A program made the position numbers and the translations under genes. Positions 2,703 to 52,685 of a stretch of DNA of 64,000 nucleotides are shown here, in pieces. The notes below the pieces were generated by a model. The model was given only the letters and a program-made list of their open reading frames with translations, did no database searches and was not told the origin of the DNA. This DNA is from Eledone cirrhosa (Eukaryota): contig OZ024743.1 in the NCBI GenBank assembly GCA_964016885.1, forward strand, positions 230,640,001 to 230,704,000. The letters run 5' to 3'. Numbering within the stretch: the first letter of the stretch is position 1; each line of letters starts with the position of its first letter.

Positions 2703-5641
2703 ATTGTTACTGTTACTATTATCATTACTTTTTTTTTTTTTTTCTTAATTCAATGATGCTCCAAACAATATAAAAGCGATAATTGGCAATAAGGGCAGGG
2801 GCCCCAGGTTATTACAGCCTGGGCCCGCTCGTCATCGTGCCACTGTAATAGAGCTAAACAAGGCATTTGTCTTGGTTGCTGGAAACGTACGGAGCTGCTT
2901 GACATGGATTCCTTGGAACGTCCTGAACGAAGGACTGCTCTTGTTGCAAAGGAGCTTCGACGTTACGATCTTGACATGGTGGCTTTATCTAAGACGAGCT
3001 TAGCTGGAGATGGTCATCTTACAGAATTTTGTGGAGAATATACATTCTTCTGGAAAGAAAGAGAAGGAACCAGAAGAGAGGCTGGGGTAGCATTTTCTGT
3101 TAAGACTGTTCTTGTGAATAAATTAGAAGAATTCCCAGTAGGGATTAGTGAATGTCTTATGTCCATTAGAATTCCGCTGGACAAAGCAAGATATGCGACC
3201 CTGGTGAGTGTGTATGCTCCAACTATGAATTCTGTCGATGAAGAAAATGTGTCCTTTTACCATGCCATGAACGGTGTTTTAAGAAATGTTCCTCAGGCAG
3301 ACAAAGTCATCGTGCTTGATGACTTTAATGCTAGAGTGGGTAAGGATTTTAAAACATGGAATGTAATCGGAAGGCATGGGGTGGGAAAGTGTAACAATAT
3401 TGGTATGCTCCTGCTGCAGATGTGTGAGGAGGTGGATCTGTGTGTTACCAACACCATGTTCCAAAAAAAAAAAATTTAAGACCACATGGATGCATGCTGC
3501 ATCTAAGGAATGGCAACTTTAGGATGTGCAGTGTGTCCGTGCTCTTCGTTAGCTGAGTGCTGGACGGACCACCGCCTGGTACGCGCAAAAGTGAAACTAA
3601 TCACTAAACGTAAAATCTGGGCTCCTGGTGTTGCCCTGCCCAGATGATTGAATGATGCTCGTCACAAGGATAATAATGTGAAGAGGACATTGCAAGAAGA
3701 GATGCAGGTTGCAGATATTGGTGAAGATGGCCGACCCTTTAAAAGTCGGTTTATGGTGTAAGCAGGCGTGTTCTGGGACTGGTGAAGAGAAAACATCAAG
3801 ACTGGTTTAATGAGAAGGATGAACATATATAAGACTTGTTGGCTGATAAGCGGCGTGCTCTGTCACGCTACTTGACGGCAAAACAAACCACAGGAGGATA
3901 CGTTGCATAAGGAACTCAAGGATGTAAAATCACGTGTTAGGCGGAGTCTTTCTCAGATGAAGGATCAGTAGTGGAGTGAGAAGACTGATGAGATACAAAC
4001 TGCGTCAGATTCCAATAACACAAAGCTGTTGTACAGTCTCTTGCGTGAAGTTTATGGACCATCTTCTTCTCTGGTGACACCGCTTCGCAGCAAGGATGGC
4101 AAAGAACTTATTCGTGACTCACAAGGAATTCTACGAAGGTGGCGAGAGCACTTTGATGATCTTTTGAATCAGCCGTCTGTCGTCTATGAAGATTTCCTCA
4201 ATCTCATTCCAGAAAGTCCTGTGAAAGTAACTCTTGCAGAACCTCCGACGCTTGTGGAGGTTGCAGTGGCTATCTCGAAGCTGAACAGTGGAACGTCTCC
4301 AGGTATGGATGGCATACATGCTGAGCTCCTACAATATGGTGGTGAGAGACTCCTGCAACCTCTTCACTCTTTGTTTGGCAGGATATGGGCTAATGAATCC
4401 GTACCTTCGGACTGGAGAGATGCAGTAATGGTGGTCTTGTACAAGGGAAAGGGTAACAGGAATGATTGTCGGAACTACAGAGGTATATCATTGCTTTCTG
4501 TCGTAGGCAAAATTTTATGTACGGTGCTTCTGGACCGTCTGCTGACACACATTGCAAATTGTGTTCTTCCTGAAAGTCAATCTGGTTTTCGTGCTGGACG
4601 CGACACTACTGATATAATCTTCTCAGCTAGACAGCTCCAGGAGAAGTGCATGGAACAAGGTTTGGATCTGTATCAGGTTTTTGTCGATCTGACAAAAGTT
4701 TTCGATACTGTTAAAAGAAATGCATTATGGAAGGTTCTCCAGAAACTTGGTTGCCCTGATAAGTTCCTTGCTTTAGTTAGGTCTTTCCATGATGACATGA
4801 AGGGTTGGGTTATTGTCGGAGGATATTCCAGCACCGACCCTGTTTGCCATATACTTTGCAATGGTTTTCTATATTGCATTCAGGAATTGCGAGCATGGTG
4901 TTTACATCCGATATCGAACCACAGGCAGCATATTTAACATCAGGCGCTTTGCTGCAAAAACAAAAGTATTTACATCAATCATACGAGACCTCTTGTATGC
5001 ATATGATTGCGATCTTGTAGCGCACACAGAGAGTGATATGCAGCACATTTTGAATGCATTTCCTGATGCTTGCACTGCTTTAGGATTGACTGTCAATCTC
5101 AAGAAAACCGTCCTCATGTACCAACCTGCACCTGTTAAGCAGTACATTCAACCAAATATCTATGTGTATGGTAAACGACTTGGAGTGTTTGATCAGTAGT
5201 TTGTCTACCTGGGAAGCACTGTCAATCGATACAGCAACCTTGATAGTGAAACCCCACTCAGGATTAGGAAAGCAAGTGATGCTTTCGGAAAGCTAGAAAG
5301 GCGACTCTGTGTTCAGCGATACATTTGCAGGAAGGCAAAGTTAAAGGTGTACAAGGCATGTGTGCTCTCTTCTCTTCTTTATGCCTGCCAGACCTGGGTC
5401 ACATATTGACACCACCTTAAGCAATTGGAGCGTTTCCATCAGATGTATCTCAGATATATCCATGGCGTTCACTGGAGGGACCACTCCGTTGCCAGGATAA
5501 AGGATTCTAGAATACCAAAACAACTCTTTTATGGAGAGTTAGTTAAAGGAAAACGACCGCCACATAAACCAAAAAAGAGGTATAATGATTCCTTGAAAGC
5601 CTCTTTGAAAGACGCTAACGTCTCTGCTGATACATGGGAAA

Positions 5642-13677: not shown

Positions 13678-14040
13678 GAAGCAAATCTCAAATCAGAAAT
13701 TTATTTCATCTTATGCAAAATTATAGGCAAAAGCCGAAAAACCATAATACATAATCTCCTTATAATATATAACCAGCAATTTCTCTGTCTGTCCGACAGT
13801 GGAAACACGTGCGTGCGTGGTTGCTATATATATCTCTCTCTCTCTCTCCAGCTATCCCTCTCTTTTAGTCTGTCTGATTCTCTCACTCTCACTCTTTCTC
13901 TTTGTAACACAATAACATTCCTCCCCTCTATCGCTTTGACGAATGGGGAGATGGAGGTGGAGGAGGAGAGAGTCACTAATTCACTTCACCTCTGCCTTTC
14001 TTTCTCTCCCCTCTCACTCCCTCATTACGTACAGACATTA

Positions 14041-14234
14041 GGGCGGTGGATTGGCAGAATCTGTAGAGAGTCGGACACCATGCTTCATAGCATGGAGTTA
14101 CGTGCCTTTACGGTCTGAGTTCAAATACCTCCGAGGTTAACTTTGCCTTTCATCCTCACGGGGTCGATAAAATAACGCACCAGTAATGTACTGGGTATTT
14201 GCTGGCCTTGTGCCAAAAGTAGAAACAATTATTA
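14041..14234 (+). mobile_element. tRNA-derived SINE family 1, full length
   Basis: Homologous to 13486-13677. Confidence 0.85.
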
Positions 14235-14351
14235 GAAACATTGCTTCATTTTTACATATCTAAGCATTAGTAAAATAACTAAAAATTCAAAAAGTAATTT
14301 TTCAATTCCAATTCTTATGGACAGCAAAACGTTAATAATAATTTTGTTCTG

Positions 14352-14618: not shown

Positions 14619-14654
<36 letters not shown>
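14352..14654. repeat. Palindromic minisatellite (ACACAGAAATATATATACATTTCTGTGT with TA/CA tracts)
   Basis: Repeats several times and resumes at 16466-16558 on the other side of the 310-bp array. Confidence 0.85.
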
Positions 14655-14660
<6 letters not shown>

Positions 14661-14813
14661 ATAAATGCTCTGAAATAGCGATATATATGTGAATATAGAC
14701 ATAGAATATTCGAAAATATTCTGTATGTTTATAATAAACATTTTGAAGACCTAATCGCTATAGAATAGAATACGTCACGTATTACAATTAGATTCTCGAT
14801 AAAAGCAAGGGAA

Positions 14814-14856
14814 GTAATCTACGCGTTTCATTCTTGTTAGAAATCATCAGGACTAC
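14814..14856 (-). ncRNA. Type I hammerhead ribozyme (unit 1)
   Basis: GUAGUC-CUGAUGA-UUUCU-AACA-AGAAU-GAAA-CGCG-UA-GAUUAC. Stem I has 6 bp and is extended by a 16-bp helix (14792-14807/14865-14880). Confidence 0.88.
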
Positions 14857-15123
14857 ATATCCAGTGCTTTTATCGAGAATGACACAGCTAGAGACTTATA
14901 GAATACTTAGCTGTGTACAGGAACTGGTTTGAAAGAGCGGTTGCCGGTCCGGCAGAAATTAGAAATTGGAATAAATGCTCTGAAATAGCGATATATATGT
15001 GAATATAGACATAGAATATTCGAAAATATTCTGTATGTTTATAATAAACATTTTGAAGACCTAATCGCTATAGAATAGAATACGTCACGTATTACAATTA
15101 GATTCTCGATAAAAGCAAGGGAA

Positions 15124-15166
15124 GTAATCTACGCGTTTCATTCTTGTTAGAAATCATCAGGACTAC
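15124..15166 (-). ncRNA. Type I hammerhead ribozyme (unit 2)
   Basis: Identical to unit 1. Confidence 0.88.
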
Positions 15167-15433
15167 ATATCCAGTGCTTTTATCGAGAATGACACAGCTA
15201 GAGACTTATAGAATACTTAGCTGTGTACAGGAACTGGTTTGAAAGAGCGGTTGCCGGTCCGGCAGAAATTAGAAATTGGAATAAATGCTCTGAAATAGCG
15301 ATATATATGTGAATATAGACATAGAATATTCGAAAATATTCTGTATGTTTATAATAAACATTTTGAAGACCTAATCGCTATAGAATAGAATACGTCACGT
15401 ATTACAATTAGATTCTCGATAAAAGCAAGGGAA

Positions 15434-15476
15434 GTAATCTACGCGTTTCATTCTTGTTAGAAATCATCAGGACTAC
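15434..15476 (-). ncRNA. Type I hammerhead ribozyme (unit 3)
   Basis: Identical to unit 1. Confidence 0.88.
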
Positions 15477-15743
15477 ATATCCAGTGCTTTTATCGAGAAT
15501 GACACAGCTAGAGACTTATAGAATACTTAGCTGTGTACAGGAACTGGTTTGAAAGAGCGGTTGCCGGTCCGGCAGAAATTAGAAATTGGAATAAATGCTC
15601 TGAAATAGCGATATATATGTGAATATAGACATAGAATATTCGAAAATATTCTGTATGTTTATAATAAACATTTTGAAGACCTAATCGCTATAGAATAGAA
15701 TACGTCACGTATTACAATTAGATTCTCGATAAAAGCAAGGGAA

Positions 15744-15786
15744 GTAATCTACGCGTTTCATTCTTGTTAGAAATCATCAGGACTAC
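15744..15786 (-). ncRNA. Type I hammerhead ribozyme (unit 4)
   Basis: Identical to unit 1. Confidence 0.88.
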
Positions 15787-16053
15787 ATATCCAGTGCTTT
15801 TATCGAGAATGACACAGCTAGAGACTTATAGAATACTTAGCTGTGTACAGGAACTGGTTTGAAAGAGCGGTTGCCGGTCCGGCAGAAATTAGAAATTGGA
15901 ATAAATGCTCTGAAATAGCGATATATATGTGAATATAGACATAGAATATTCGAAAATATTCTGTATGTTTATAATAAACATTTTGAAGACCTAATCGCTA
16001 TAGAATAGAATACGTCACGTATTACAATTAGATTCTCGATAAAAGCAAGGGAA

Positions 16054-16096
16054 GTAATCTACGCGTTTCATTCTTGTTAGAAATCATCAGGACTAC
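16054..16096 (-). ncRNA. Type I hammerhead ribozyme (unit 5)
   Basis: Identical to unit 1. Confidence 0.88.
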
Positions 16097-16319
16097 ATAT
16101 CCAGTGCTTTTATCGAGAATGACACAGCTAGAGGCTTATAGAATACTTAGCTGTGTACAGGAACTGGTTTGAAAGAGCGGTTGCCGGTCCGGCAGAAATT
16201 AGAAATTGGAATAAATGCTCTGAAATAGCGATATATATGTGAATATAGACATAGAATATTCGAAAATATTCTGTATGTTTATAATAAACATTTTGAAGAC
16301 CTAATCGCTATAGAATAGA

Positions 16320-16459
16320 TCTAACAAGAATGAAACGCGTAGATTACTTCCCTTGCTTTTATCGAGAATCTAATTGTAATACGTGACGTATTCTATTCTA
16401 TAGCGATTAGGTCTTCAAAATGTTTATTATAAACATACAGAATATTTTCGAATATTCTA

Positions 16460-16467
<8 letters not shown>
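16320..16467 (+). repeat. Inverted partial copy of the 310-bp unit, beginning inside hammerhead stem II
   Basis: TCTAACAAGAATGAAACGCGTAGATTAC...TATGTCTATAT is the reverse complement of unit positions ~14694-14841. Confidence 0.93.
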
Positions 16468-16501
<34 letters not shown>

Positions 16502-21803: not shown

Positions 21804-24800
21804 TATTTCTTTATTTACCATAGAGGCATAAAAAGAAGGGACAAATACAAAGGGGGAGTTTACATGAAACCGAGCAAAAAGGGTATAAAATGAAAATAAT
21901 CAAAAACAACCTCAAAAGGGAGGGGGCGTGATGGGGGTAGCAACCCCCCCCCGAAAAAGTGTGCAATCCTTTGCCCCGGGAGCACACGGAGAAGGTGCAC
22001 CTCTCTCCTTCACTTCATTACCTACAGGATGGTATACAGAGAAGGCCCATTTACACGAGCCATTCTCGCCACTATCACCCACCTTTCATAAAACTGCCTG
22101 TGGCCAAGCACCTCTCTCTCCATTCTTATCCTTCTTCCGAAGTGATATCGGAAGAAGTAGACCAGATTATGGCCAGAGAGGAAGTTGCCTGACCTCAGAC
22201 CTTTCAATCGTGTCCACCAAACAACCTCTTTCAACATGGCTATTACGCTCAGAAAAACCGCCTTTGCTTCCTTTGTGAAGAGGGGAGGCGGCTTGATTGT
22301 CATCACGAACTCGGCAGGCAATCGAATCGGCGCCACCCGCGGCAGCAGTCGTTCGGCGTAGCCCCACAGATCAGCCACGCCCGGACATTACACCAATGCG
22401 TGCGCAACGGTTTCTTTTGTGACGCACGCATCTAGGGCAAATCTTTTTCGAGGGATCCCTGCCCGGGCGCCCGTGTCTGTAGAGCTTTTCTCGAACGGGT
22501 AGAGCCCCCCAAGTAGTACTGCCAGGCCAGTGACTTCTGGAAGTTGTCCATTGGTCCGGGGCCGAAAGTCCTACCGGCCAGGCTGGCCAGTTCGTCTTCT
22601 TCCATGTCCACGAACTCTCCAAGGGTGTCATCGCCCCTGCTAGCCACCAGCCCTCTATAGAATGACGAGGTGGATTCTCCACCGATGGCCGGGTCCGCTT
22701 GCCAGAGAGCCCTGAGCGCCTGAGCACACTCAGTGTGCCAGTCGCCCAGTTTTCCGGATCTTTGCTTGACCCAGGACTGCAGCTCGGTGAGCGAGACGAG
22801 TCTCAGGAAGGCTCGTCTCACGAACGGAGCCCACACCGGTTGACCAGTGAGGAATACCTGTAGGTGCCGTAGCCTTAATGCGTGCCTACGCATCATCAAC
22901 CACGGCATCCCAGCCCTCCTTTCGAAGGTTGTTGGCAGCATATAGATCTTCTCACCATAGGAGGGCGCTTTTTCCAAAGAAATTGAAAGAGCATGCGTTC
23001 CATGGTGGTAAGTGTTTCCTTAGGGCAAGGCACGACAGTCAGGCGGTAGTAAGTGACGGACGCTATGTAAATGTTCGCCACCTCCGCCCGCCCTTTTAGG
23101 GACAGCTTACATTTGGCCCATTTCTGGGTCAGTGCAAACACCTTGCTCGTAACCTCGCCCCAGTTCTTTTCCACCTGGAGGTCCGGTCCAAACCAGACCC
23201 CAAGCAACTTCTCCGTGCCCTCCGTCCAGTGTCCGACGACACCGTCGGGAGGCATCGGTCTGCCTCTCCACGTTCCGAGTTGCAGCCCGATGGATTTTTC
23301 CCGGTTCAGTTTCGCTCCTGACAACCTTTCGTATTCCTCCAGTAAGATGCCGATCGCCTCGATCTCCGAATCGGTCGATACCATAACTGTTACGTCATCG
23401 GCGTAGGCCGACACCGCTTTGCTCAATCTTGGTTCCAGGGGGATACCCTGCAACAACTCCAACTTCCTCAGTAAAGGCTCGAGTGTCAATACGTACAGAA
23501 AGAAGGGAGGAAAGAGGGCACCCCTGTCGAATGGATCGTGTGATTTCGAACGGCTTGATCCTAGAATAGATGTGGTTGCTATGTAAGGCAGTGATCCAGC
23601 CTCTGAAAACAGGACTGAACCCAGCCGCCGCTAGCACCGCATCCAGGTAACCATGGTCGACCCTATCGAACGCTTTAGACTGATCCAAGTTGATCAGGGC
23701 CCCACGGAAGCCGGGTTTGTTGCCAACCCTCTCTATGATGATTCGCATGAGGTGGAGGTTGTCGTGAATGGACCTGGATGGGATAGCACATGTCTGCAAA
23801 TCTCCCACCATGATATCCACGACAAGCGCCAACATCTTTGCTAACACCTTGGCCAAAATCTTTAACTCTGTGTTTAGCAGGGTTATGGGCCGAACATTAT
23901 TTATACTATCCCCTTTGTTCTCGTCCTTCCTCACCAGCGAGACTACGCCCTTGGCTACAGAACAAGGAATTCTCCCGTTCTGCTGCCAATTGCAGTAGAC
24001 TGCTTCGAGGAGTTCGGAGAAGAAGACCGGCATTGCCAAATAAAGTTCGTAAGTTATACCATCGAGACCTGGAGATTTGCGTCTGCTGCATTGGCTCAGA
24101 GCATCCCCGATCTCATAAGCCAAGATTGGTCCCTCGCAAGACTCTGCCTCTTCGCTCGAGAGGCGCGGCAGGCCGTCGAGGTATGGCCCGAAATCCACGT
24201 CCTCGCCCGGACCCCCGCCTCCCCCCAACAATCGGGCAAAGTGCCTTTGAAAGGCCTCGCACATCTGCTTAGGATCCCGGATCACCCGTCCATCCTCGTC
24301 TTGCAAAGACCGGATGGTGGATCGTTTTCCACTCTTAGCTTCTGTCACGCGGGCCCAGCCATCGGCTTTGGCCCCCTCATTACCTAGAGCCCGTATTTTA
24401 CTTCGAATGACGCAGCCTTCGTGCTTTGCATCGAAAAACTGGCCCAAGGCCGTCCTCGATGCCAGCACTCTGGCCACATCTTCGCTCTTGATTGCCTCTT
24501 CTAATTTACCTGTTAATTCTTTTTCGTTCCTACTCCTATTGGCAGCTAACATCTTGCTATAACTTATTGATTCTGTTCTAATCTCTCTTTTGAGAGATGC
24601 CCACCATCGGTGGTTGACGATTGCACCCGTCAACCTCTCCTTAACTAATCTGCTATTCCGGTCTCTGTAAGCCTCTTTTGCCGGTAAAGACAAATTAAGT
24701 TTCCAGTAACCGGGACCCTGTCTATGTGTTCTCTCGAGGTTGACTACGCAGGTCACTAATTTGTGATCTGTATAGCCAACCGTGAGCATTTCTGGACAGC

Positions 24801-27596
24801 TTAATATGTCCCTATACTTACTTCTAACTAAGTATCTATCTAAGTACTATCTAGATTGACCACTGTGGTTCGTCCAACTCCAGGTTGGCACCGTTGGAGA
24901 AACTAGTCGATATCTATCGACCAAGTTAAAACGGTCGAGTAACCCCCCTCTATTAGGACATGCTCCTGCATAGTCCCAACGTGCATCTAGGATGTCATTC
25001 CAGTCCCCCGCTAGAAGCAGGGAACGCGACGTTCCCAGAAAAGTCTCCAGACGCTGGAAGAAGTCGGGTCGTTCAATTCCGAAAAGGGAGTAGACGGCGA
25101 CCAGTCTCAAGGCCGCACCTCTACTATTGCCAAGGTCTAGCACCAACAAACGACCTTCCGCGTCCGAGTGAACAACATGTACGGCGAGACCCATGTGTTT
25201 TTCCAGCAGTACGACAACTCCACCCCCACCTGCAGGTTGACAGAGAGATGCGTGAACCTCAAAGTCATCGAAGGTAGGGGCCAGCTGCCGCACGACGCTG
25301 ATCCGAATCTCACAGATAACCATTACATTTATACCACATGACCTGAGGTCATTTAGAAGCTTTGATTGCTTCCAAGTTGAGCCCAGGCCAAGTGCATTCA
25401 GACATCCTACTCTTAATACATCCATGTGGGCGGCAAAGCCAAAGGAGAGTGTAGTGACCTACCTTTCTGCTTCCCGGGGTTCGGGTCGCACGACTTCCAT
25501 CGGGTCGTGGGTGTTGGGTGAAGGGGTGTCTTGTGGTGGTGTGGGATCGTCAGTGTGTGGTGGGGTTGGGGTGTTTGAAGTTGGGTTGGGGAGGGGAAGG
25601 GGAGGGGGAAAGCTTTTTAGTAGGACGTGGTTTATGGTTCTGACAGAGGGTGGTCCTACGTCCTCCTTAAAATCCTTTTTTAGTTTTTGGTAGAGGTTCA
25701 TTGGGATCTTTATTAATTTTAAATGTGGGTAGTTTTCTGAAGAAACAAAGTTTACCCCTTCGGTTTGTACCGAAGGGTTATTGTTTATGAGTTCATTTAA
25801 TTTATTATTGTTTCTGTTGATGTAAGTATAGTGTAATGTCTTTTTTTCGGATGGTGTGAGTGTTTCGAAGAGGGGGGGGGGCAGGTTTGGTTTTGTTTGT
25901 TGCTGGAGGGGTGTTTTGTGTTTTGTTGGATTGTGTTGACATTTGGGTAGGGGCTGTTTGGCCTTGTGCGTTTTGCACATGTTTTCTTTTTTTCCTTTTA
26001 ATCTGTCTGAAGGACTCCGTTTCTTCCTCCGAATTCGTTGGGTTATCTTCAGTGTTGGAGGGAAGAGGTATGTTTGCTGGTAATGTTTCCGTGTTAGTTT
26101 TCTTTGTGGGGGAGATGGATGTCACTATGTTAGACTGTGTTGTGTGTTGTGGCTGCGGTGGTTGTGTTGTTTTATTGAGTGAGGGGTTGGGCGGGACTGT
26201 GTTATGTTTTGGGGTAATGTGTTATGTCTGTTTGTGCTGTGGTGGTGGTGTAGTTTTACTGAGGGACGGGTTGGGTCAGACTGAGTTTTGTTGTTTGTTT
26301 ATCTGTTGTGGTGGTGGTGGAACTGGTGTTGGTAGCAAGATTTTCTTCTTGTTGAGTTGGGGACAAGCCGCCTTCAGGTGCCCTCTGTCTGCACAGATAT
26401 GACAGGACGGCCTTCTCCCTTCCACGCTAATGTTTATATACCCATGGCCCACTAATAGGATTCTGTCGGGTATTTGGGTAATGCGTTCAGGCTTCATTTG
26501 CACTACAAGTTCTATACCTGTCCCACTGAACGCATTGCCTGTGGTTTTCCCAATGGAAATCACATTGTCATTCGCTGGATCGATGAAGCCAGCTATGAGC
26601 CAGCAGTAGTCCATATCTGGCATTATCGCATCCAGCCATATGCGCTGAGTTCTTTTACCCATATAAGATGGATAAAAGGTAAAATTGGTCGAACGAATCG
26701 GCGACAAAGCATGTTTTTTTGCCGCCGATTCGTTGTTCATAATAATGGCTAGGCTTCCATAGAGCCTGTCTCTTCTTATGAAAGTGGCTTCATTAAGTAC
26801 TTCTCTAAGTACCGCTTTAATTTCTGCTTGTGTTGGTTGTTGTGGCTTTTTTGAGATGCTGTAGATGGTGTGGAAAACGACCGTCCGACTCTCAATATCT
26901 TTGGTGAGTTCTTGGGGCATTTTTACTGACAAGGCTCCATTTTCGCCTTGAGTTATGAATTGTTTGGCGTTTTTTTATTATTTGTGCCACATCTGAAATA
27001 TTTTCAGGTATGTATGTTAAAGATTTTTTGTTGTTTGTGCAAATGAGATGTTATTGGTGTTGACTTTGTCGTCTGTTTTGCTTTCTGTTATGATGTTGCT
27101 GTTTTCAAATGTTATTTTTGTGTTTGTTGTTTCTTTGTTTGTGGTATTAATATTGTCATGAAATTCTTTCATATTTTTGTTGTTGTTGGAATCAATCTCC
27201 GGACCTGTGTCCTCGTCGACATTTTTCTCCGCACATTCGTCTGTTTTTATTTTATTTTTTCTTTCCTTCTCTGTGACGTTAGTTGGGAAGGGAGGGGAGA
27301 CTAAAGCTTACAACTCTTACCGCTGCCCCCCCCCCACTATTTTCGTTAGCTTCGTTTAACATTTCTCCCAGACGATTGAAATTTTATGCAAAACAATTTT
27401 TAAAACAGATTTTTCACCCCTGGGAGAGGCGAAAATGAGCTGACCCACCGCCTAACAGTTCAATCGGGGGGTCAAGCTACACAATAGTATCAAAATTAAA
27501 ATTAAACTTACAAAATTTCAGCAATAAATTGGAACAAAACTTCTGCGCGAAGTGAATTACGTCTACGCTATCGAACAGACGACAGCTAATTTCAAA

Positions 27597-33344: not shown

Positions 33345-36300
33345 TTACAGATATATGCTCAGAGTAGGCCCATTCACTCGGGCCATTCTTGCTTCTCTCA
33401 CCCATCTTTCAACAAAATGCTGGGAAGAGAGCACTTCCCTCTCTACTCTGATTTTCCTTTTCAAATGAAATTTGAAAAAATCAATCAGAGCATCACCGAA
33501 GAGGTAAGTGCTCGTCTTCAGCCCTTTCAAACGTGTCCACCATACTATCACTTTCGCCATGGCCACCAGACAGATAAAAACTTCCTGCCCTTCCCGGCTA
33601 AAGGAGGAGGGCGGGGCAATCCTCACGATGGACTCAGATGATAGTTGGATCCGTCCTAAACGCGACAGCAGGTGTTCGACATAAACCCACAAGTCAGCAA
33701 TTTTCGGACACTGGACGAGTGCGTGCTGGACGGTTTCGTCGCCCTGCGCGCATCTCGGACATGCCCGGCTGACGGCACCTCCATGCCTGTAGAGTTTATC
33801 CCGAACTGGCAAGGCTCCTCGGTAGCACTGCCAGGCCAGAGATTTCTGGAAGTTGTCCATAGGCCCCGGCCCGAAAGTTCTTCCGAAGAGATTGGCTAGT
33901 TGATTTTCGTCGACGCCTAGAGTTTCCCCAGGTACGTCGTCGCTCTTACCCTCCACTAATCCTCTATAGAACGCCGAGGTGGAGTTTCCACCGATCACAT
34001 TGCCCGATTGGTCGAGGGCTGTGAGCGCCTGAAGACATTCCAGTCTCCAGGCGCTCCCTCTCGGTCTTCGCTTGACCCAGGACTGCAGCTCCGTCAAGGA
34101 AACGAGCTGGGAAAATACGCGCCTAGCAAACGGCGACCACACCTGATCACCGTCGAGGAAGAGGTGGAGATGTCGTAGCCTGAGCGCGTGCCTGCGCATC
34201 ATCAGCCACGGCATGCCCAGCCCTCCACGTAGCGGGTGTTGACAACAGATGGACCGCCTGACCATCGGAGCACGTCCCTTCCACAAAAAGCGAAAGAGCA
34301 AACGCTGCAGCGCAGTCAGGCGAGGCTTAGGACAAGGTACGACGGTCAGGCGGTAGCAGATGACAGACGCGATGTACGCGTTAGCCACCTCCGCTCGACC
34401 TTTCAGGGATAGCTTCCTCTCCGCCCATTTCTGGGTGAGAGAAGCCACCCTGCTCGTCACCTCGTCCCAGTTTTTGTCCGTCTAGAGGTCCGGACAGAAC
34501 CAGACCTCTAGCAATTTAACCGGTCCGTCCGTCCAGCGTCCGACGACGTTGTTGGACGGCATGGACCGGCCTCTCCAGGTGCCGAGCTGCAGGCCCACTG
34601 ACTTTTCCTGGTTGATCATTGCTCCTGTCACCGCTTCGTATTCTTTTAGTGTAGTGCCGATCGCCTCGATGGGTTTGGCGTTCGACACCACTACGGTGAC
34701 ATCGTCCGCATATGCTGACACGGATCTTCCGCATCCTAGTTCGCGCGGGACTCCCCTCAACGTCTCCAGTTTGTGCAGTAATGGCTCGAGAGTCAATACG
34801 TACAAGAGGGACGAGAGGGGACATCCTTGGCGGACCGAGCGCATGAAGTTGAACGGTTCCGACAGGTGACCGTTCACTCTCACCACAGAGCAGATGTCGC
34901 TGTGCATGGCAGCGATCCAGCCTCTGAAGACGGGCCCAAAGCCAGCCGCCCTCAGGACTGCCGCTAGGTAACGATGGTCGACCCTATCGAAAGCTTTCGA
35001 CTGATCTAAATTGATCAAGGACCCACCCGTGCCAGGTTCCCTAGCTACCCTCTCTACGATGTATCGCATGAGGTGAAGGTTGTCGTGGATGGATCTGTCG
35101 GGAATGGCGCATGTCTGCGCCTCTCCCACCAGACCACCGACGACAAGCACCAACCTTGGCCAAAATCTTAAACTCTGTGTTTAGCAGAGTTATGGGCCGG
35201 AAATTTTCTATGTTATCCCCCTTGTTCGGATCCTTTCTCAGCAGTGCCACCGCTCCTCGGCTCATAGAACTGGGAATTCTCCCGTTCTGTTGCCAGTTGC
35301 AATAGACGTCCGCCAAGAGGCCTCCGAACAAGTCTGGCATCTGTACGTAAAGTTCATAGGGCAGACCATCCAAACCAGGCGATTTACCCCTTGTGCAGCC
35401 AGTCATTGCCTCCCTTACTTCAGCGGCTGTTATCGGCTTTTCGCAACACTTCGCCTCAGTGGCCGAAAGCCGCGGCAGTCCGTCGAGGTAGACACTAAAG
35501 TCCATCCCTCTACCCGGCCCACCGCTGCCCCCGAACAGCTGAGCGAAGTGTCGCTGAAAAGCTTCACACATTTGCCCGGGATCGAGTAGCATGCGCCCGT
35601 CGTGGTCCACCAAAGACCGGATCGTGGCTTTGTTGCCACGACGCGCCTCCGCCACTCGGGCCCATTGAACGGCTTTCGTCCCCTCGTATCTGAGAGCACC
35701 CACCCTTGCTCTGACAACGCAGCCTTCGTGCTTTGCATTGAAGAATTGGTCAAGGGCCAATTTCGCCGCAAGCACGTCGGTCGCGATGCCTTTGCTAAGC
35801 GCCTCGTCTAATTTTCTAACTAGTTCTCCCTCTGCTCTATTTTTCTCTATTGCTAAAGCCTTACTAAACCTAATCGATTCTATTCTAATCGCTCTTTTCA
35901 GAGCAAACCACCACTTGTTGTTGACGATGGCCCCCGTCAACGCCCGCTTAACTAGTTCTCTAATCCGGTCTCTGTAGGCCTTGCGCGCTGGTAAGGACGC
36001 GTTTAGCTTCCAGTAGCCGGGTCCTCGTCTATGAAGCCTATCTAAGTCAAGCACACAGATCACGAATTTGTGGTCCGTGTAGCTGACTATCTTGATTTGT
36101 GGACAGCCTATGCTAGACCTATCTATTTCCCTACAAAATACTCTATCTAGATATGATCTGGATGACCCTATGCGGTTTGTCCAAGTCCACATTGGCACAT
36201 TCGGGAAATCCAATCGGTACCTGTCAGACAGTTCAAAACGCCTGAGCAGGTTGGTGAGGCTCTTGCACCCTCCACCCCTATCCGCTAATCCCACACAGTC

Positions 36301-36750
36301 CCAGCGTGCATCTAAGATCCCGTTCCAGTCGCCCACTAACACTAAAGAGCGGGACGTTCCAAGAAAGGTCTCCAGACGCCGGAAGAAATCAGGCCGCCCT
36401 GCTCCTGTCGGGGCATAGACGGCCACTAGCCTGAAAGCTTGCCCGTCTCCGCTGGTCACGTCCAGCACCACCAGCTTACCCTCTGGGTCCAGGAAGATGG
36501 CCCGTATGGCGAGATCCAAACCTCTCCGAAAAAGTACAGCAAATCCTCCACCGGATCCAGGACGGCTGGGAGATGCGTACACATCGTAGCCGCCGAAGAT
36601 CGGTGCGAAGGCCCGTGCTTCGGAGATTCTGGTCTCGCTGATGGCCACTACATCTATGTTTAGTGACCTGAGGTCGTTGAGCAGGTGACCCTGCTTCCAT
36701 GACGACCCCAAGCCACGCGCATTTATGCTGCCTATTCTGAGTGAGGTCAT
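33345..36750 (-). pseudogene. Tx1 ORF2 (APE-RT), disrupted
   Basis: MTSLRIGSINARGL, ISET, GDWN, YLDR, TDH, then RT motifs. A short deletion near 35150 and a stop at 34482 disrupt it. Confidence 0.9.
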
Positions 36751-36785
36751 GTTTAAAATAGAGTGGAAAAGATGGGAAAGACCAC

Positions 36786-38878
36786 TTACCGTACTTTTGG
36801 TAGAGGAGGGATGGTTTTTACATCCCTTTTCACTTGATCGTCTGGTGAAGGGACCGTTGAATCGTCCCTTCGGCTGGTCGTCGGCTCTTCTAAGAGAATG
36901 TCTGAGTATACTCTTCGATTGATGGTTCCTCCTAGGTCCCTGAAATCACCAACTGCGTTGGGGAATTTCGTTTTAATATTTGTGTATTGTTTCTGTGCTA
37001 TTTTGAGCAGTCTTATGTTAGTTGGCGTTTTGATTGGTGCTGGTATTATGTAGTCCTGTTGTGAAATGTCTGTGTGTTCAATTATGTAAGTCATTAGTTT
37101 CTTGTTGTGTGTATTTATTGCCGTGCATTTGTTTTTCTGGGGGTGGGGTGTGGTTCTGCTATTTTCTTGTCGTTGTTGCTGGGTGTGTGTGTTTTGTTGT
37201 TGTGTTTGCGATGTTGGTGCTTGTGGTGGTGGTGTTGAAGGTGTTGCTGGCGGTGGGGTTGTCGCCGGTGGTGTGGGTGGTGATGGTGTTGGTGGTGTTG
37301 CTGCTGTGGGTCTCTTTGCAGTAGACTTTACCCTTTTCTCATTTCTTTCCTCCCTTTTCAAAGGCGACGATGCGCTGCTTCTGCGTTTGTGCCTTCTTAC
37401 GACCTTTTGCCATCCCTCTCCCACCTCATACTCCATGTCTGATTCTGTGAGGTCGGGGAGGGGTACCAGCTCCACTCTTTCACTTGTTGTTGTTGGTGAT
37501 GTTTGCACTGGAGTCTCTGTTGCAGCTGCATTTGGTATTGCTGTTGTTGTTGTTAATATTTCCACTGCTGCTGCTGTTTTTGATTTCCGTGGAGTGGGTA
37601 TGGGTGCCACGGACCTATCGTTCCTGGTTGCCGCTTGTCCTGTTGCTGGTAGCCGTGGAGCCGGATTCGGAAGGAGGGGGGTTTTCTCCTTTCTCAGGGT
37701 CTTCTCGTTGCAGAAGGCCCTGAGGTGAGTCTTCGATCCACAGCGAAAGCATTTCGGGCGTTTGCCCTCAACACTTATGGGCAGTTGAGTGCCGTTATCG
37801 AAGTCTATCACATCCGGGATAGCTTCGATGCACTCCTGGTTGGTTTGGATTAGCATCTCAATGGAGGTGCCGACCCAATCTTCTCTTACTTTTTTCTGTA
37901 CTTGCAGTACAGTTGTTTTGTCCTCGATTCCGACGAGGACAGACGCGGCCATCCAAGAAGGAGCCATTCCGGGGGGGGGACGTGGGTCAGTTTGACCCTC
38001 ACAATTTTTTGCCCGCAGTAGGAGGGCACCAACACCATTTCCTCGCTCCTTAGGGTCACTACTGATTGGGCCTTTGCCTCCTGGGGTGTGGCAAAAAGTA
38101 CGTCTACGGTGGCATATTTTTTGCCTCGGGTGATGTGCGTTTTCCGCTGCCACACAGACCCCAAGGCTTTTTGTATCTGAGCCTCTGTGGCTCTTTCCAC
38201 CCTACGGGATTTTGTACTTACTGTACGGTACGTGACCGTACAGTGCTGATGGGTTTCGAACAAATTTTCCGCTGCCTTGCAGATTGCTCGGTGTCCGTTC
38301 TTTGTCACCATCTTCTTCGCTTCCTCTAATTCCTCATTTGTTATGAGGATTGTTTCCAAGTTTTTCGCAATGCCTGCAAATGAGATTGGTTTTTCTTTGC
38401 TGCTATTGTTGTTGTTGTCGTCAGAGCTGCTGGTACTTTTGTTGTTGCTGCAGGTACTACGACTACTGCCTCCGCCGCTGTTGCTGTGGTTGTTGTTGGT
38501 GTTGCTGCTGCTAATGCTGTTGTTGTTTATGCTGCTGGTGATGCTGTTGCGGCTGCTACTGTTATTTTCATTGTCACTGTTGCTGTTGTTATTACGGCTG
38601 CTACTGCTATTATTCCTGACGTCAGACGAATGAACTGGGTTTTTTTCGTATTTCCCACACACCTGTTTCGTCGCTGTCGTCGTCGTCGTGCAGAAACCTT
38701 GCACGCTTTGCACGAGACTTTTCTTTTCTTTCGTCACTTGCGAAAGAGAAGGAAGGGAGAGTGACACATTTAAAGAAGGGAGGGAGAGAGACAATCTTCT
38801 CTCTGCTGTAGTGATGATTGAGGAAGAAGAAGACGGAATGAGTGGGAGTGACGTATGAAATTTCTTTTCCGTAGCCAT
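36786..38878 (-). pseudogene. Tx1 ORF1 (gag-like, CCHC knuckle), one frameshift
   Basis: CFRCGSKTHLRAFC; frameshift at the G-run ~37971-37979; Ser/Asn-rich N-terminus. Confidence 0.82.
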
Positions 38879-40329: not shown

Positions 40330-43300
40330 ACAAGAAAACCCCGTGACCAAGAAATACCGGGATGGCGGCCGGCGGGGAATAGCCGTGTCTCTAGGGGAGA
40401 ACGACCCCTCTAGTCTTGGTTGACACTCGTTCTAGAAGTGGTAACACGAAATGATTACCCCTTGGCGGATAAGGATAAAACGCGACAAAATAAAGTAAAT
40501 GTCTAATGATAAAATCTCATACCGGATCGGCCGTCACCCGGGTAAAAAAGGGCCGCGTCCCTCAGAGAGGAACCAGACTGGGGTCGAAAAATCAGCTAAT
40601 GGTTCAAACCTTCCCATCACTTCGGAGCTGGAGACCTCCCATAACCAGAATACTCCTACTGTTGGCCCTCCATGCTCACCACCTAGAAATCCAAAGAAAA
40701 AGAGAGAAAAATGGTCAAGGGAAGATAATAAAGAAGTCCTTGAGGCTTTCTACACTGCCATGTACTACCCATCAAATACATCGAATACAGAACAGACATA
40801 TATCAACTGGAAAAAGAAACATCCCGAAAACAGAGGCTATATTGACAGTAACAAACTAGCCAATATACGAAGAAATATTGTAAGAAAAAAGTTACTCACT
40901 GATATAGAAATTGATCAGATCAAGCTATTAGCACAAAGTCAGCGAAGGGAAAATGAAACATGTGTCACTGAAAACGAGGTAAATTGTAACACTTCGAATC
41001 CCAGGGTTGGGGCGGAATCACTCGCAACAGAACAAATTAAAGAAAGGATCGAAAAAGTGGAGGGAGTGCATGCTCAAGATGAAACTCCAAATGAAAATAA
41101 TGAGATCGTAAATGATAAAGAAATGAATGAGAATGAACTTGCCAACTTGAAGGATGAAATTATGATCGAATGGATGAAAATGAAAGAATCTGACATGGGG
41201 CAACGAGACACCCTCCCTAAGATCCAGAACTCCAAACAGAACCAAAAGATAATACACAAGACTAACATAATTCTCAAAACATTATCATCACAAACAAACT
41301 AAACATTACTGATTTAAATCATCTCTATTATGCATCGGCTAAAGTCACCACTCACTTATGTGGAGTGAAGATGAAAAAACAAAGGAATTCCCACAAGAAA
41401 TCTACTTGGCAAGAGAACATCAATCGCCAAATAAACCTTCTCCGATCTGACATAGAAATTTTAACAAACTATAAAGTAGGTGAACATGTTAAACAAACTA
41501 AACTTAGAAAATTGAAAAAAAAGTACAGTATAAAATCAACAAGTGACATAGACATGCTGATCGAAATAATCAAGCAAAGAGTGTCGGCCAAAGCTGCTCA
41601 TATAAGGCGCTTTGAAAAACGATCTAGATTCTATAATGACAATAATATGTTCACAAACAACCAAAGTAACTTCTACAGAAAAATTGGTAAGTCAACAATA
41701 ACTGCTAAATCAATATCACCCAAGGAGGAAGTGCAAGAATTCTGGGAAAAGATCTGGGCCGAAGAAAAAGTTCATAACATACATGCCCCATGGATAGACA
41801 GACAAATGAAAGATAAAGCTCACCTTGAGGAACAAATATGGGAAAATATAACAGTTGAACAGTTGCGCTTGGCTCTAAGAAATACAAGCAAATGGAAATC
41901 CCAAGGAAAAGACAAAATACAAAACTTTTGGATAAATGCCTTCACAGAGTCTCATGAGCTGTTAGCCCAACTTTACAATGAAATAGTTAAGGAGCCAGAA
42001 AAGATACCACCATGGCTAGTTAACGGCATTACATTCCTGCTTCCGAAGAATGATGAGACAAACAATCCCCCAAATTACAGACCGATAACTTGCTTTACCA
42101 CAATGTATAACATTTTAACATCAGTCCTAACTGAATACACATATGACCACTTGATAACAAATGACCTATTTCCCATTGAGCAGACAGGGTGTAAACGCGG
42201 CTCATATGGCTGTAAGGATCAGCTTCTGGTTAACAAAATGATACTGGAAGATTGTCATAATAGACACAAAAATCTATCGATTGCTTGGATAGATTATAAA
42301 AAAGCATTCGATAGTTTGCCACACAGTTGGATTGAAAAATGTTTAGAGATTTTCAAAATATCCCCGTTGTCAGGAGGTTTTTGTTATTCAGTATGAAGAC
42401 ATGGAAAACGACACTCCTTTAGAATAGTGAAACAAAATCACTGGAAGCTGGAGAAGTTAATATTAATTGTGGAATTTTTCAGGGTGACTCTTTATCACCG
42501 CTTTTATTCTGCATCGCGCTTATACCATTAAGTAAAATGCTCAATGAAACAAAACATGGATATAAAGTCTATGACAAAACCATTAATCACTTGTTCTACA
42601 TGGATGACCTGAAACTATTTGCAAAAGATTGGATGATCAAACTCGTTTTGAAACACGAAAGCATCAAAAGATCATATTCCATTACAAAAGATGCACAAAG
42701 ATACAGTAATGGACTACAAATTTCAGAAGTCCCATTTACTGCTGAAATGGAAAACACAGAAAAAGCAAAGCAGGTAAAAGTAACTGCAAAGAAAGAACTG
42801 CTACAGAAACTGGCTAAGAAATGGCAAGAAAAGCCTCTGTATGGAAAATACCCAGAACGAGCTAACAATCCTGATGTTGACAAAACTTTAACCCATCAGC
42901 GACTGGCATCCTCTGGACTGAAATCGGAGACTGAAGGACTGATTATATCAGCACAAGATCAGTGTCTGCCAACAAAAATTTACCAAGCCAACATAATAAA
43001 AAATGGATGCAGCCCATTATGCCGTGTATGCAAAAAACAACCAAAGACTATTGACCATATAATTTCAATGTGCAGTCCTATAGCTCCAACCGAATACCTA
43101 AACAGGCATGACAGAGCTGCACAATACATACATTGGATAATGTGTAAGCATTTTGACCTGCCCCATCAAAAGAATTGGTGGGAGCATCAACCACCTCCCA
43201 TACTTGAAAAAGATCACATCTCAATCTTGTGGAACTTTAGCATCCAAACAGACCGAAAAATAGATGCAAATAGACCTGATATAATATTGAAGGACTTTAA

Positions 43301-43730
43301 AAAGAGGGTATGCCTGCTAATTGACATGTCTGTTCCAATAGACAAGAATGTATTTATAAAAACATTTGAAAAATTGAGCAAGTATAAGGACATGGAGATA
43401 GAAATTGGAAAAATGTGGAAATTGAGAACTAAAACAATACCAGTGGTTGTAGGTGCTCTGGGAATGATACCTAAGGGGTCTAATGATTACTTATCGCAAA
43501 TCCCAGGAAACCCGCGTATAGGAGAAATACAAAAGATAGTACTAATGGGAACTGCCCATATACTAAGGAAGATTCTGTCAATATAAGTACATCACAAGTC
43601 TAAACACTAAAGATGCATGTGTGAGTATGTATGTTCTTTCTTGAACATTCGCTGACCTTGTTGTCTCTTGAGGTCACTGGTTGTGACTTGGTGATAACTC
43701 GTATGAACATAAAGCAAGATAAATGCAACT

Positions 43731-47000: not shown

Positions 47001-48690
47001 GGGAAACAGAGTTAACATCAACTGGAGAATCCTTGGGAAGCGTGAAGATCAAGAGAGGTATCTTCCAGGGAGGTAGTCTGTCCCCTTTCTTGTTTGTCCT
47101 TGCCCTGATGCCCCTGACCAGTGTACTGCAAAAAGTGAGAGCAGGTTACAGGTTAGGAAAGGGAGGGCTTACCATCAATCACTTCCTCTTCATGGACGAT
47201 CTTAAGCTCTTCGGGAAGAGTGAGAAGGAGTTGGATGTGCTTGTTGACACTGTCCGTATTTTCAGCAATTTGGTATTAGTAAGTGTGGGGTAATTGTGAT
47301 GAGGAGGGGTAAGTTGAGCAGAAGTAACGGAATCCAGATACCAACAGGTGAGATGATAAAGGAAATTGACTCTGAGGAAGGATACATGTATTTGGGCGTT
47401 CTGGAGGCTGATGACATCAAGAACAAAAAAATGAAGGAATTGATAAGAACTGAATACCTTCGGAGAGTAAGGAGCGTATTAAAGTCACATCTGAACAGTA
47501 GGAATGCCATAAGTGCAGTAAATTCCCGAGCTGTGTCTATTATTAGGTACAGTGCGGGAATTCTGAGATGGAATGTTGCTGAACAAAAAGAAATGGATAG
47601 CAAGACTAGGAAGCTATTGACTATCTACAATATGTTCCACAAGAGGAGTTTTGTCGATAGACTCTACTTAAGGAGTTCTGAAGGTGGAAGAGGTCTTATC
47701 AGCATAGAGGACTGTGTTCAGATGGAGAAAAACAACCTACACAAATAAGTGACTGAATGTAAGGAGCCAATGCTCAGAACTGTACTAAAGGAGGGGACAA
47801 TAGGCCAGGGGATGTCCAAGGAAATAATATCAAGGAGAAAGAGCAGCCTTCATGAAAAATCCCTTCATAGTACCTTCTTTGAGAAAACTGAATTTAGAGA
47901 TCCACAGACATGGAACTGTTTGAAAAGAGGAGACCTTAAAAAGGCTACAGAAGGAATGTTAATGGCTTCGCAGGAGCAGGCCCTCAAAACGAAGTGGTTG
48001 AAACACCACATTTACAAGGAGGAGGCTAGCCCACTGTGCAGGATCTGTGGAGAGAGAGAGGAGACTGTGGCTCACATTGTATCCGAGTGTAAACACCTGG
48101 CCCAGACTCACTATAAGGGCTGGAGACATGATGTGATGGGCAGGGTGATCCACTGGCACCTATGCAAAGTAAATAATTTACCACATTCTGAGAAGTGGTA
48201 TGAGCATAAGCCAGAGGCGGTGATAGAAAACGATCAGGTGAAGGTGCTGTGGGATTTTAGGATACAGACGGACAAGAAACTGGAACACAATTGACTTGAC
48301 CTGGTGATTTTGGACAAAGAATACAGATCGTGCTTGGTTGTGGATGTGGCCTGCCCATTCGACACGAGAGTGCAAGAGAAGGAGAGGGAGAAAATTAACC
48401 GATACCAGGACTTAAAGTGGGAGGTAAAAAGGATTTGGAACTGCCATGAAGTCAAAGTGATCAAGATTGTCATGGGCGCGCTAGGGACTATCTCAAAAGG
48501 TTTCCAGGGATGGTTAAAGAAAATTGGCCCCTTCACGCTTTTTGGAACGCTTCAAAAGGCATGCTAGCTGGGAACAGCAAGAACCATCCGATACGTCCTG
48601 AATATCTGAGGCTGCAGGTAGTGGCTTGATATTCATTTCAACAAACTTTCCAGTTAACTAACATCAATGACTGAGACTCAAAAAATAATA
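44030..48690 (+). mobile_element. R4/Dong-like RLE LINE, family G, copy 1 (degenerate)
   Basis: ORF pieces at ~45230-48609 with RT (FMDD), CRICGE..ET..H....C and PD-(D/E)xK-type RLE. Homologous to 54658-59206. Confidence 0.9.
44039..44872 (+). repeat. Two tandem ~440-bp monomers in the family G 5' UTR
   Basis: TTTTAGTTTTAACAA...GAATTGAT(G/A)ACCC repeated at ~44039 and ~44482; one more monomer at ~60541. Confidence 0.85.
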
Positions 48691-52200: not shown

Positions 52201-52651
52201 CCCAGCGTGCATCTAAGATCCCGTTCCAGTCGCCCACTAACACTAAAGAGCAGGACGTTCCAAGAAAGGTCTCCAGACGCCGGAAGAAATCAGGCCGCCC
52301 TGCTCCTGTCGGGGCATAGACGGCCACTAACCTGAAAGCTTGCCCGTCTCCGCTGGTCACGTCCAGCACCACCAACTTACCTTCTGGGTCCAGGAAGATG
52401 GCCCGTATGGCAAGATCCAAACCTCTCCGAAAAAGCACAGCAACTCTTCCCCCCGATCCCGGACGGCTGGGAGATGCGTACACATCGTAGCCGCCGAAGA
52501 TCGGTGCGAAAGCCTGTGCTTCGGAGATTCTGGTCTCGCTGATGGCCACTACATCTATGTTTAGTGACCTGAGGTCGTTGAGCAGGTGGCCCTGCTTCCA
52601 TGACGACCCCAAGCCACGCGCATTTATGCTGCCTATTCTGAGTGAGGTCAT
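49233..52651 (-). pseudogene. Tx1 ORF2 (APE-RT), one frameshift
   Basis: 675-aa and 492-aa overlapping ORFs; a C-run near 50639 is one base shorter than in copy A. Confidence 0.9.
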
Positions 52652-52685
52652 GTTGAAAAGGAGTGGAAAAGATGGGAAAGTTCAC

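What the first reader, a model, noticed from the sequence alone, without database searches (positions are those of the whole stretch)
14655..14964. Almost the entire 310-nt monomer is base-paired (viroid/retrozyme-like fold)
Seen, in + coordinates of unit 1: ATAGCGAT 14675-14682 pairs with ATCGCTAT 14754-14761. That helix encloses the hairpins AGAATATT-CGAA-AATATTCT (14703-14722; UUCG loop on the ribozyme strand) and ATGTTTAT-A-ATAAACAT (14725-14741). Further helices: AATACGT-C-ACGTATT (14769-14783), the 16-bp helix closing the hammerhead, ACACAGCTA/TAGCTGTGT (14882-14916) and TGCCGG-T-CCGGCA (14942-14954). Inference: this density of helices suggests selection on the RNA rather than a DNA satellite.
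Basis: partly seen in the sequence, partly recalled or inferred. Interest (0 to 1): 0.7.

Follow-up and report, generated by a model that had tools for sequence, protein, structure and literature searches.

The report
Folded ribozyme repeat with Penelope-type insertions
This 310-base repeat carries a hammerhead-ribozyme motif in a branched fold conserved across related families, and it sits in the genome as about a thousand mirror-image arrays whose ends suggest they were likely copied round and round from a small RNA circle by a Penelope-type retrotransposon enzyme.

Summary
The helices are real and the unit folds better than shuffles (z about -5, both strands), but 'almost entirely paired' is wrong: 57-61% of bases pair, much as in shuffles, in a branched fold, not a viroid rod. 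Selection on the RNA is supported: three paralogous families (~65% identical) keep the helices by compensatory changes, and G-U wobbles fall mostly on the hammerhead strand. The unit is a non-LTR retrozyme (type I hammerhead, minus strand; 4,587 exact core copies). The more telling feature is the insertion anatomy. In 86 of 86 complete two-armed loci, including this one, two arrays point outwards from a random-phase junction, with one outer end at monomer position ~165 and the other ~30 nt earlier, nearly always in (TA)n. This matches the 'tail' and inverted-copy signature of Penelope-like elements (PLEs). Each locus carries one haplotype across both arms (34 haplotypes in 98 loci). Best explanation: a PLE protein nicks both strands and reverse-transcribes one RNA circle from two start sites, rolling round it repeatedly. 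Cleavage, expression, circular RNA and the partner PLE were not shown. Recurrent A>G changes hint at RNA editing.

The parts
14655..16319 (-). Left arm: 5.4 head-to-tail copies of the 310-nt retrozyme unit, ribozyme sense on the minus strand; outer (3') end at monomer position 165 (numbering from the predicted cleavage site)
   Evidence: units 1-4 identical, unit 5 differs at 1 base
16320..16468 (+). Right arm: inverted partial copy, monomer 289 through the cleavage site to ~127-139 (the exact end is hidden in the TA run)
14814..14856 (-). Type I hammerhead motif of unit 1: helix I 6 bp, core CUGAUGA 14850-14844, helix II 4 bp with U-U at its base, GAAA 14829-14826, helix III one pair plus a palindromic 4-nt loop; predicted cleavage between 14820 and 14819
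   Evidence: Hammerhead_HH9 19.2 bits, E 0.025, below the gathering score
14792..14880 (-). 16-bp helix closing the hammerhead (14792-14807 with 14865-14880); would bring the two ends of a cleaved monomer together
   Evidence: 11 of the 19 pairs in this helix plus the adjoining 3-bp helix change on both sides across families
14675..14761 (-). Multibranch domain: 8-bp helix 14675-14682/14754-14761 enclosing hairpins 14703-14722 and 14725-14741; the most conserved sequence module across families, next to the two insertion ends
14769..14783 (-). 6-bp hairpin; paralogues have a hairpin of different sequence at the equivalent place
14882..14916 (-). 9-bp stem-loop; paralogues have a different stem around a conserved loop sequence
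14942..14954 (-). 5-bp GC hairpin, next to the conserved 5-bp helix 14934-14938/14667-14671
14655..14689 (-). ~26-35-nt 'tail' present at the left end only (monomer ~131-165): the stretch between the two inferred reverse-transcription start sites
14624..14654 (.). (TA)n target, left side
16469..16493 (.). (TA)n target, right side

Best explanation
The unit is a non-LTR retrozyme with a type I hammerhead motif and a branched fold conserved by compensatory change, and its arrays were likely written into the genome by a Penelope-like (RT plus GIY-YIG) protein reverse-transcribing a circular monomer RNA many times over. Inferred cycle: an array is transcribed; the hammerheads, working as dimers through the palindromic helix III, cut it into 310-nt monomers; the 16-bp closing helix holds the ends together for a host ligase to circularise; a PLE protein binds the conserved domain at monomer ~59-165, nicks both strands of a (TA)n target and primes two cDNAs on the RNA, one at position ~165 and one ~30 nt earlier; each RT rolls round the circle for up to ~20 turns or more; the two cDNAs are joined at a microhomology, giving outward-pointing arms with a tail at one end. 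Shown here: motif, fold, covariation, copy number, arm geometry, fixed outer ends, random inner junction, one haplotype per locus. Inferred: transcription, cleavage, circle, PLE identity, rolling-circle copying.
For: Hammerhead core in each of the 5 full units, against 0.32 expected; 4,587 exact copies genome-wide, control 0. No locus-fixed variant in the 12 invariant core positions scored, while the variable N7 changes in 22 of 98 loci. Of 106 loci examined, 86 are complete two-armed insertions and all 86 pair one long (160-170) with one short (120-140) end; 77 were picked by the long end, 9 were not. 87 of 89 loci with both ends found have (TA)4 within 20 nt of both ends. 1,015 exact long-end/TA junctions genome-wide. 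Inner junctions are spread round the monomer (KS p=0.08; 4 of 172 within 5 nt of the cleavage site), with microhomology of 2 nt or more in 60% of 65 gap-free junctions against 18% by chance. 125 of 172 arms are 2 units or longer. 98 loci carry 34 haplotypes, nearly always shared by both arms; only 2 of 67 minority substitutions (one event) are mirrored in the other arm. Families B and C show the same arms and two ends. PLEs abound here (10,597 GIY-YIG candidates, 150 scored), include an uninterrupted 938-aa RT+GIY-YIG frame, and one has the same two-arm form with a ~55-nt tail on one arm (L141). Literature: inverted 5'-truncated copy, 30-40-bp tail and (TA)n bias in PLEs (PMC8557442, passages); a purified PLE cuts and extends both strands and starts RT at two internal sites that define the tail (PMC11167929, passages); retrozyme circRNAs shown in coral, mussel and axolotl (PMC7229834, passages and Discussion).
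Against: No RNA, cleavage or circle was observed for this family. The hammerhead has U-U instead of G-C at the base of helix II and a one-pair helix III, and 8 of 9 Xenopus retrozyme dimers did not cleave in vitro (10.64898/2026.07.22.740005). No PLE sharing the retrozyme's 3' module was found among the 40 GIY-YIG loci examined. One locus (L224/L276) has two units of one haplotype then another haplotype in BOTH arms in the same order, and L066 has one mirrored variant: these fit a shared linear or multimeric template better than a single circle. A few loci have variants shared by 2-4 units of one arm (L036, L037, L050, L070), so some local duplication occurs. All architecture loci except the window come from contig C1 and most were chosen by one end. 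In the PLE tested in vitro, uncleaved RNA was the main substrate.
Confidence: 0.72

Rival explanations
1. Same element and same PLE enzyme, but the template is a linear multimeric (uncleaved or partly cleaved) transcript of an existing array, primed at two sites; circles are a by-product.
For: L224/L276 switches haplotype at the same rank in both arms; L066 has a mirrored variant; the weak-looking hammerhead could leave long multimers; uncleaved RNA was the dominant substrate for the PLE tested in vitro.
Against: 34 haplotypes each fixed across arrays of many units need a monomer bottleneck plus re-amplification. Single-unit variants are common in arrays (216) yet are almost never mirrored between arms (1 event). 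Inner ends are not enriched at the cleavage site (4 of 172). L058 has a different haplotype order in its two arms.
Confidence: 0.15
2. Short PLE-type insertions of one or two units are expanded afterwards at the DNA level by slippage or unequal exchange, as proposed for vertebrate retrozymes (10.64898/2026.07.22.740005).
For: Some variants are shared by 2-4 units of one arm; one arm exceeds 40 units (L070 plus L278); a related hammerhead-less 163-nt unit also forms an array (L165).
Against: Both inverted arms would have to expand separately at most loci (125 of 172 arms are 2 units or longer) while leaving 216 mutations confined to single units and few shared ones.
Confidence: 0.1
3. A DNA satellite or foldback element whose palindromes are kept by DNA-level processes (cruciforms, conversion), with no selection on RNA.
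For: Both strands fold about equally well; several helices are near-perfect palindromes; the paired fraction is ordinary.
Against: Strand-asymmetric G-U over A-C; invariant hammerhead core with free N7; PLE-type ends; dispersed insertions. The fold-back variant predicts that the short-ended arm is never the longer one, yet it reaches further in 37 of 86 loci.
Confidence: 0.03

Closest known systems
Metazoan non-LTR retrozymes (Cervera and de la Pena 2020, PMC7229834)
   Same: Tandem 310-bp units, 34% GC, one type I hammerhead per unit, no ORF, no LTR, thousands of copies, stable predicted fold that leaves the ribozyme free. Helix III resembles axolotl HHR_Amex1 (one pair, palindromic tetraloop); the U-U at the base of helix II resembles HHR_Amex2.
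   Different: Two-armed inverted arrays with two fixed ends in (TA)n are not described in the passages read; expression and cleavage are untested here.
Penelope-like elements, EN+ clades (PMC8557442, PMC3846280, PMC11167929)
   Same: Head-to-head inverted arms, ~30-nt tail at one end only, (TA)n targeting, minimal palindromic hammerhead, target duplications of variable length.
   Different: No ORF; arms are many identical short units instead of 5'-truncated long elements; no sequence match to a PLE 3' end found among 40 loci.
Non-autonomous Chlamys elements such as MRC1 (PMC8557442)
   Same: Non-autonomous, multicopy head-to-tail insertions attributed to a PLE.
   Different: Those resemble their autonomous partner at the 3' end; here a hammerhead is present and no partner was identified.
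Hammerhead viroids and viroid-like satellite RNAs
   Same: Size, hammerhead, inferred circular monomer and dimeric cleavage.
   Different: Genome-encoded with DNA copies, ribozyme on one strand only, about 60% paired and branched; no evidence of RNA-to-RNA replication.

Membership tests
non-LTR retrozyme | Tandem repeats of 150-450 bp, GC below 50% | tested here: met
   310 bp x 5.4; 106 of 310 bases G+C
non-LTR retrozyme | Type I hammerhead in each unit | tested here: met
   core and three helices in 5 of 5 full units; Rfam match only below gathering score
non-LTR retrozyme | Non-coding, no LTR structure | tested here: met
   no stop-to-stop frame of 150 aa inside the array (one TA-rich frame overlaps the left end); flanks are TA runs; PBS/PPT not searched
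non-LTR retrozyme | Many dispersed genomic loci | tested here: met
   4,587 core copies, 1,015 long-end junctions
non-LTR retrozyme | Stable self-paired monomer | tested here: met
   z about -5; paralogues z -6.7 and -10.2
non-LTR retrozyme | Target duplications longer than 4 bp when present | tested here: inconclusive
   mostly hidden in TA runs; clear 12 bp at L034 and ~32-36 bp at L032, L036, L044, L247, L266
non-LTR retrozyme | Self-cleavage of the transcript | not testable with these tools
   needs in vitro transcription
non-LTR retrozyme | Expressed as linear and circular monomer RNA | not testable with these tools
   needs RNA of this species; northern or RNase R sequencing
PLE-mobilised insertion | Inverted copy adjacent at the 5' end | tested here: met
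   92 of 106 loci are simple two-armed (86 complete), 5 more contain such a pair; 9 showed one arm, 2 of them because the fetched stretch ended
PLE-mobilised insertion | 30-40-bp tail at one end only | tested here: met
   86 of 86 complete loci: ends at ~165 and ~126-139
PLE-mobilised insertion | Microsatellite (TA)n target | tested here: met
   87 of 89; most loci were picked by a TA junction at one end, the other end was not selected
PLE-mobilised insertion | Shared 3'/pLTR sequence with an autonomous PLE | tested here: inconclusive
   no match in 40 GIY-YIG loci out of 10,597 candidates
autonomous PLE | ORF with RT and GIY-YIG | tested here: not met
viroid | No DNA counterpart, RNA-to-RNA replication | tested here: not met
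   thousands of chromosomal copies with insertion junctions

The most novel reading that the evidence does not exclude
These arrays are direct fossils of rolling-circle reverse transcription of a circular RNA by a dimeric Penelope-type enzyme: each insertion uses two start sites on one circle strictly asymmetrically (always one long and one short end, spaced about as far apart as the target duplication is long), and the retrozyme's new haplotypes arise partly at the RNA stage by A-to-I editing of its helices, which reverse transcription then fixes in the genome. All 7 locus-fixed stem wobbles are A>G and none C>U (p about 0.004 against the DNA mutation spectrum), and two sites (UAU, UAG contexts) recur on 6 haplotype backgrounds each.
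Probability: 0.3. Interest if true: 0.85.

Novelty: new member of a known kind. Interest (0 to 1): 0.6.

Why it matters
That PLEs mobilise animal retrozymes has been argued from co-occurrence, shared ribozymes and pLTR similarity, and how the tandem arrays arise (rolling-circle RT or later local amplification) is open. Here about a thousand very young insertions carry the PLE tail-and-inversion signature with base-level regularity. That ties retrozyme arrays to the two-start-site PLE chemistry seen in vitro and gives a 310-nt template with mapped start sites for testing it. I found no report of this anatomy for retrozymes in searches, or in the passages read; supplements were not read and subscription journals are mostly not covered.

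Tried and rejected
Rfam at gathering threshold: no match in the window. DNA search of the genome with the unit: empty because common words are skipped; replaced by patterns. Sequencing runs: no RNA holder listed; the six holders are of unrecorded kind and contigs only, so nothing on expression. A Pfam accession recalled for PLE ORFs was not in the library. Partner search: BLAST, a profile of alignment A2 and tblastn found no PLE whose 3' end matches the retrozyme; retrozymes next to PLE fragments (L112, L131, L145) are separate insertions. The RT frames elsewhere in the window are LINE-type where a second domain is present (APE or zf-RVT) and are not adjacent. The short-end pattern count multiply counts minus-strand hits, so only the 761 forward hits are usable. 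and unit listings failed on a regex slip and were redone. Fold-back self-priming as the sole origin of the second arm: rejected. 'Viroid-like rod': rejected. Three helices score poorly (50-54% paired) because MAFFT offsets them between families; I did not hand-correct the alignment and rely on single-sequence folds for their equivalents. R-scape was not available. Earlier-findings look-ups returned nothing.

Full report
Observation. The window holds 5.4 copies of a 310-bp unit at 14655-16319; units 1-4 are identical and unit 5 differs at one base. The unit folds far better than dinucleotide shuffles: z -5.45 (minus) and -4.81 (plus), 0 of 100 shuffles as low, and z -4.9 as a circle on either strand. 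Nineteen other AT-matched windows ranged from z -4.4 to +1.7. But the unit is not almost fully paired: 57-61% of bases pair, as in many shuffles; the listed helices cover 38%; 35% of bases have pairing probability above 0.9. The fold is a branched set of short perfect helices.

The ribozyme. The minus strand carries a type I hammerhead motif at 14856-14814 in each full unit (5 matches, 0.32 expected). Helix I has 6 bp, helix II 4 bp with U-U at its base, helix III one pair plus a palindromic tetraloop; cleavage is predicted between 14820 and 14819, which I number as monomer positions 310 and 1. Rfam finds it only weakly (Hammerhead_HH9, E 0.025; nothing at gathering score). Short palindromic helix III is the usual metazoan form and is thought to work as a dimer (PMC4209133, passages); U-U at helix II occurs in an axolotl retrozyme (PMC7229834, passages). 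A 31-nt core pattern has 4,587 exact matches in the 3.0-Gb genome, control 0.

Selection on the RNA. Older paralogous families were found (B and C, 64-67% identical to the window unit; a shared pattern has 1,556 matches; a more distant family D). On 13 units RNAalifold gives 58 pairs, 23 with compensatory change. With the window's own structure on 22 units, 29 of 78 pairs change on both sides, score 0.269 against 0.157 in shuffles (0 of 500) and 0.06-0.10 when slid. These units fall into only three families, so the number of independent events is small and the shuffle ignores relatedness; the measure 'further pair types' was not above shuffles. Three helices are offset by the aligner and score 50-54%; single folds of a B and a C unit show equivalent hairpins and the same branching, z -6.7 and -10.2. 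At pairs that are Watson-Crick in the window, G-U outnumbers A-C on the ribozyme strand, 19:5 and 27:12 (eight of twelve helices counted), which a DNA-level palindrome would not give. Within family A, substitutions fixed across a whole insertion keep the pair in 8 of 11 stem cases, single-unit mutations in 22 of 83 (p=0.004); none of 29 fixed substitutions hits the invariant core, against 4 of 180 single-unit ones.

Insertion anatomy. The window's array is followed at 16320 by an inverted 149-bp piece, and both outer ends abut (TA)n. I mapped 106 loci: the window, 10 picked by hammerhead-core matches and 95 picked by the long-end junction (from the first 100 of 1,015 listed, all on contig C1). 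Eighty-six are complete two-armed insertions with both 3' ends pointing outwards, and all 86 have one end at monomer 160-170 and the other at 120-140; 6 more two-armed ones ran off the fetched stretch, 5 are compound, 9 showed one arm (2 of these ran off the stretch, 1 ends in a gap). No locus had two long ends. Inner junctions fall anywhere on the monomer (KS p=0.08; 4 of 172 near the cleavage site); 65 of 86 have no gap, and 60% of these show 2 nt or more of overlap against 18% by chance (BLAST overlaps may run slightly high). Median arm 1,049 bp; 125 of 172 arms are two units or more. TA runs flank both ends in 87 of 89. Where interruptions allow, target duplications are 12 bp (L034) or about 32-36 bp (five loci). 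Families B and C show the same form.

What makes such insertions. An adjacent inverted copy, a 30-40-bp tail at one end and microsatellite targeting are PLE hallmarks (PMC8557442, passages; PMC3846280, passages). A purified PLE protein cuts and extends both target strands and starts reverse transcription at two internal RNA sites whose spacing is the tail (PMC11167929, passages). This genome has many PLEs (10,597 GIY-YIG candidates, 150 scored), an uninterrupted 938-aa RT+GIY-YIG frame with a CX2-5CxxC linker (L131), and a two-armed PLE with a tail on one arm (L141). I found no PLE sharing the retrozyme's 3' module among 40 loci, so the partner is unidentified.

Circle or multimer. Ninety-eight loci give 34 haplotypes, each fixed across all units and both arms. 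A new variant can only take over a whole array through a one-unit bottleneck and re-amplification. Arrays carry many single-unit mutations (216), yet only one event in 67 testable minority substitutions is mirrored in the other arm, and inner ends are not enriched at the cleavage site; both argue against routine copying of linear multimers. The short-ended arm reaches further than the long-ended arm in 37 of 86 loci, so it is not simply a fold-back copy. Two loci complicate this: L224/L276 reads two units of haplotype X then haplotype Y in both arms, as a shared multimeric template or a coordinated template switch would give, whereas L058 changes haplotype in one arm only. Rolling-circle RT was hypothesised for retrozymes (PMC7229834, Discussion); a 2026 preprint instead proposes local amplification after insertion (10.64898/2026.07.22.740005, parts 1 and 3 of 5 and passages). 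The data favour the first without excluding the others.

A side lead. A>G makes up 9 of 29 fixed substitutions against 15 of 180 single-unit ones (p=0.002); all 7 fixed stem wobbles are A>G; positions 20 and 276 recur on 6 backgrounds each. This fits A-to-I editing of the RNA before reverse transcription, but also stronger selection against C>U in G-C pairs, RT error bias, or recombination between haplotypes; some backgrounds may be related by descent. The repeat landscape recalls a coleoid cephalopod, where editing is extensive (recalled, untested).

Verdict. The finding is real in substance and overstated in its title. The element is a new member of the non-LTR retrozymes (confidence about 0.93 for that identity; cleavage and circRNA untested). 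The full PLE rolling-circle mechanism is rated 0.72. Its value lies in the insertion signature, which I did not find described for retrozymes in searches or in the passages read; supplements were not read and could bear on this. Interest 0.6.

Noticed in passing
L146:2660-2840; also L133, L136, L140: Another hammerhead family (E), as short two-armed insertions in TA runs, whose core and helix II nearly match the window's family while the rest differs; family A differs from B and C mostly in this region, suggesting exchange of a ribozyme module.
   Followed up: partly
L165:1380-2020 (also L166, L167): Tandem array of a 163-nt unit related to family C that lacks the hammerhead region but keeps the 3' module and the long end; it may be mobilised without its own ribozyme, or be a deletion expanded in place.
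   Followed up: no
L224 and L276; L058: Mixed-haplotype insertions: outer two units of one haplotype in both arms (L224/L276); switch after four units in one arm only (L058).
   Followed up: partly
window 14655-15584, runs X1, X3, X6: Three runs of other coded organisms each hold one exact 340-nt contig (one full turn of the unit) at depth 10-15, and two of them a diverged paralogue fragment; most likely carry-over between libraries. Run kind unknown.
   Followed up: no
L131:4809-7622 (-), L133:1775-5062 (+), L141: Long uninterrupted Penelope-like RT frames (938 and 1,096 aa); several copies of the L131 family have near-identical 3' regions, so it is young; candidates for the mobilising enzyme.
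   Followed up: partly
L142:8150-9860: Four hammerhead-like motifs about 500 bp apart with weak similarity to the family profile (E 0.003): a further, longer retrozyme family.
   Followed up: no
L070 and L278: A single family-A arm longer than 40 units (over 13 kb), end not reached.
   Followed up: partly
monomer position 2 (window 14818), 6 loci; position 287, 21 loci: A fixed one-base insertion just after the predicted cleavage/ligation site, always with the change that turns the helix II U-U into A-U.
   Followed up: no
window 3972-4937, 22896-24846, 33345-36945, 41266-43586, 46442-47293, 49233-52681, 56860-59130, 62431-63486: Many broken LINE-type RT, endonuclease and zf-RVT frames; the window is retroelement-rich.
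   Followed up: no
window 14035-14235: Piece of a very high-copy repeat (depth over 2 million in run X2 at 14200-14290); looks SINE-like (recalled).
   Followed up: no
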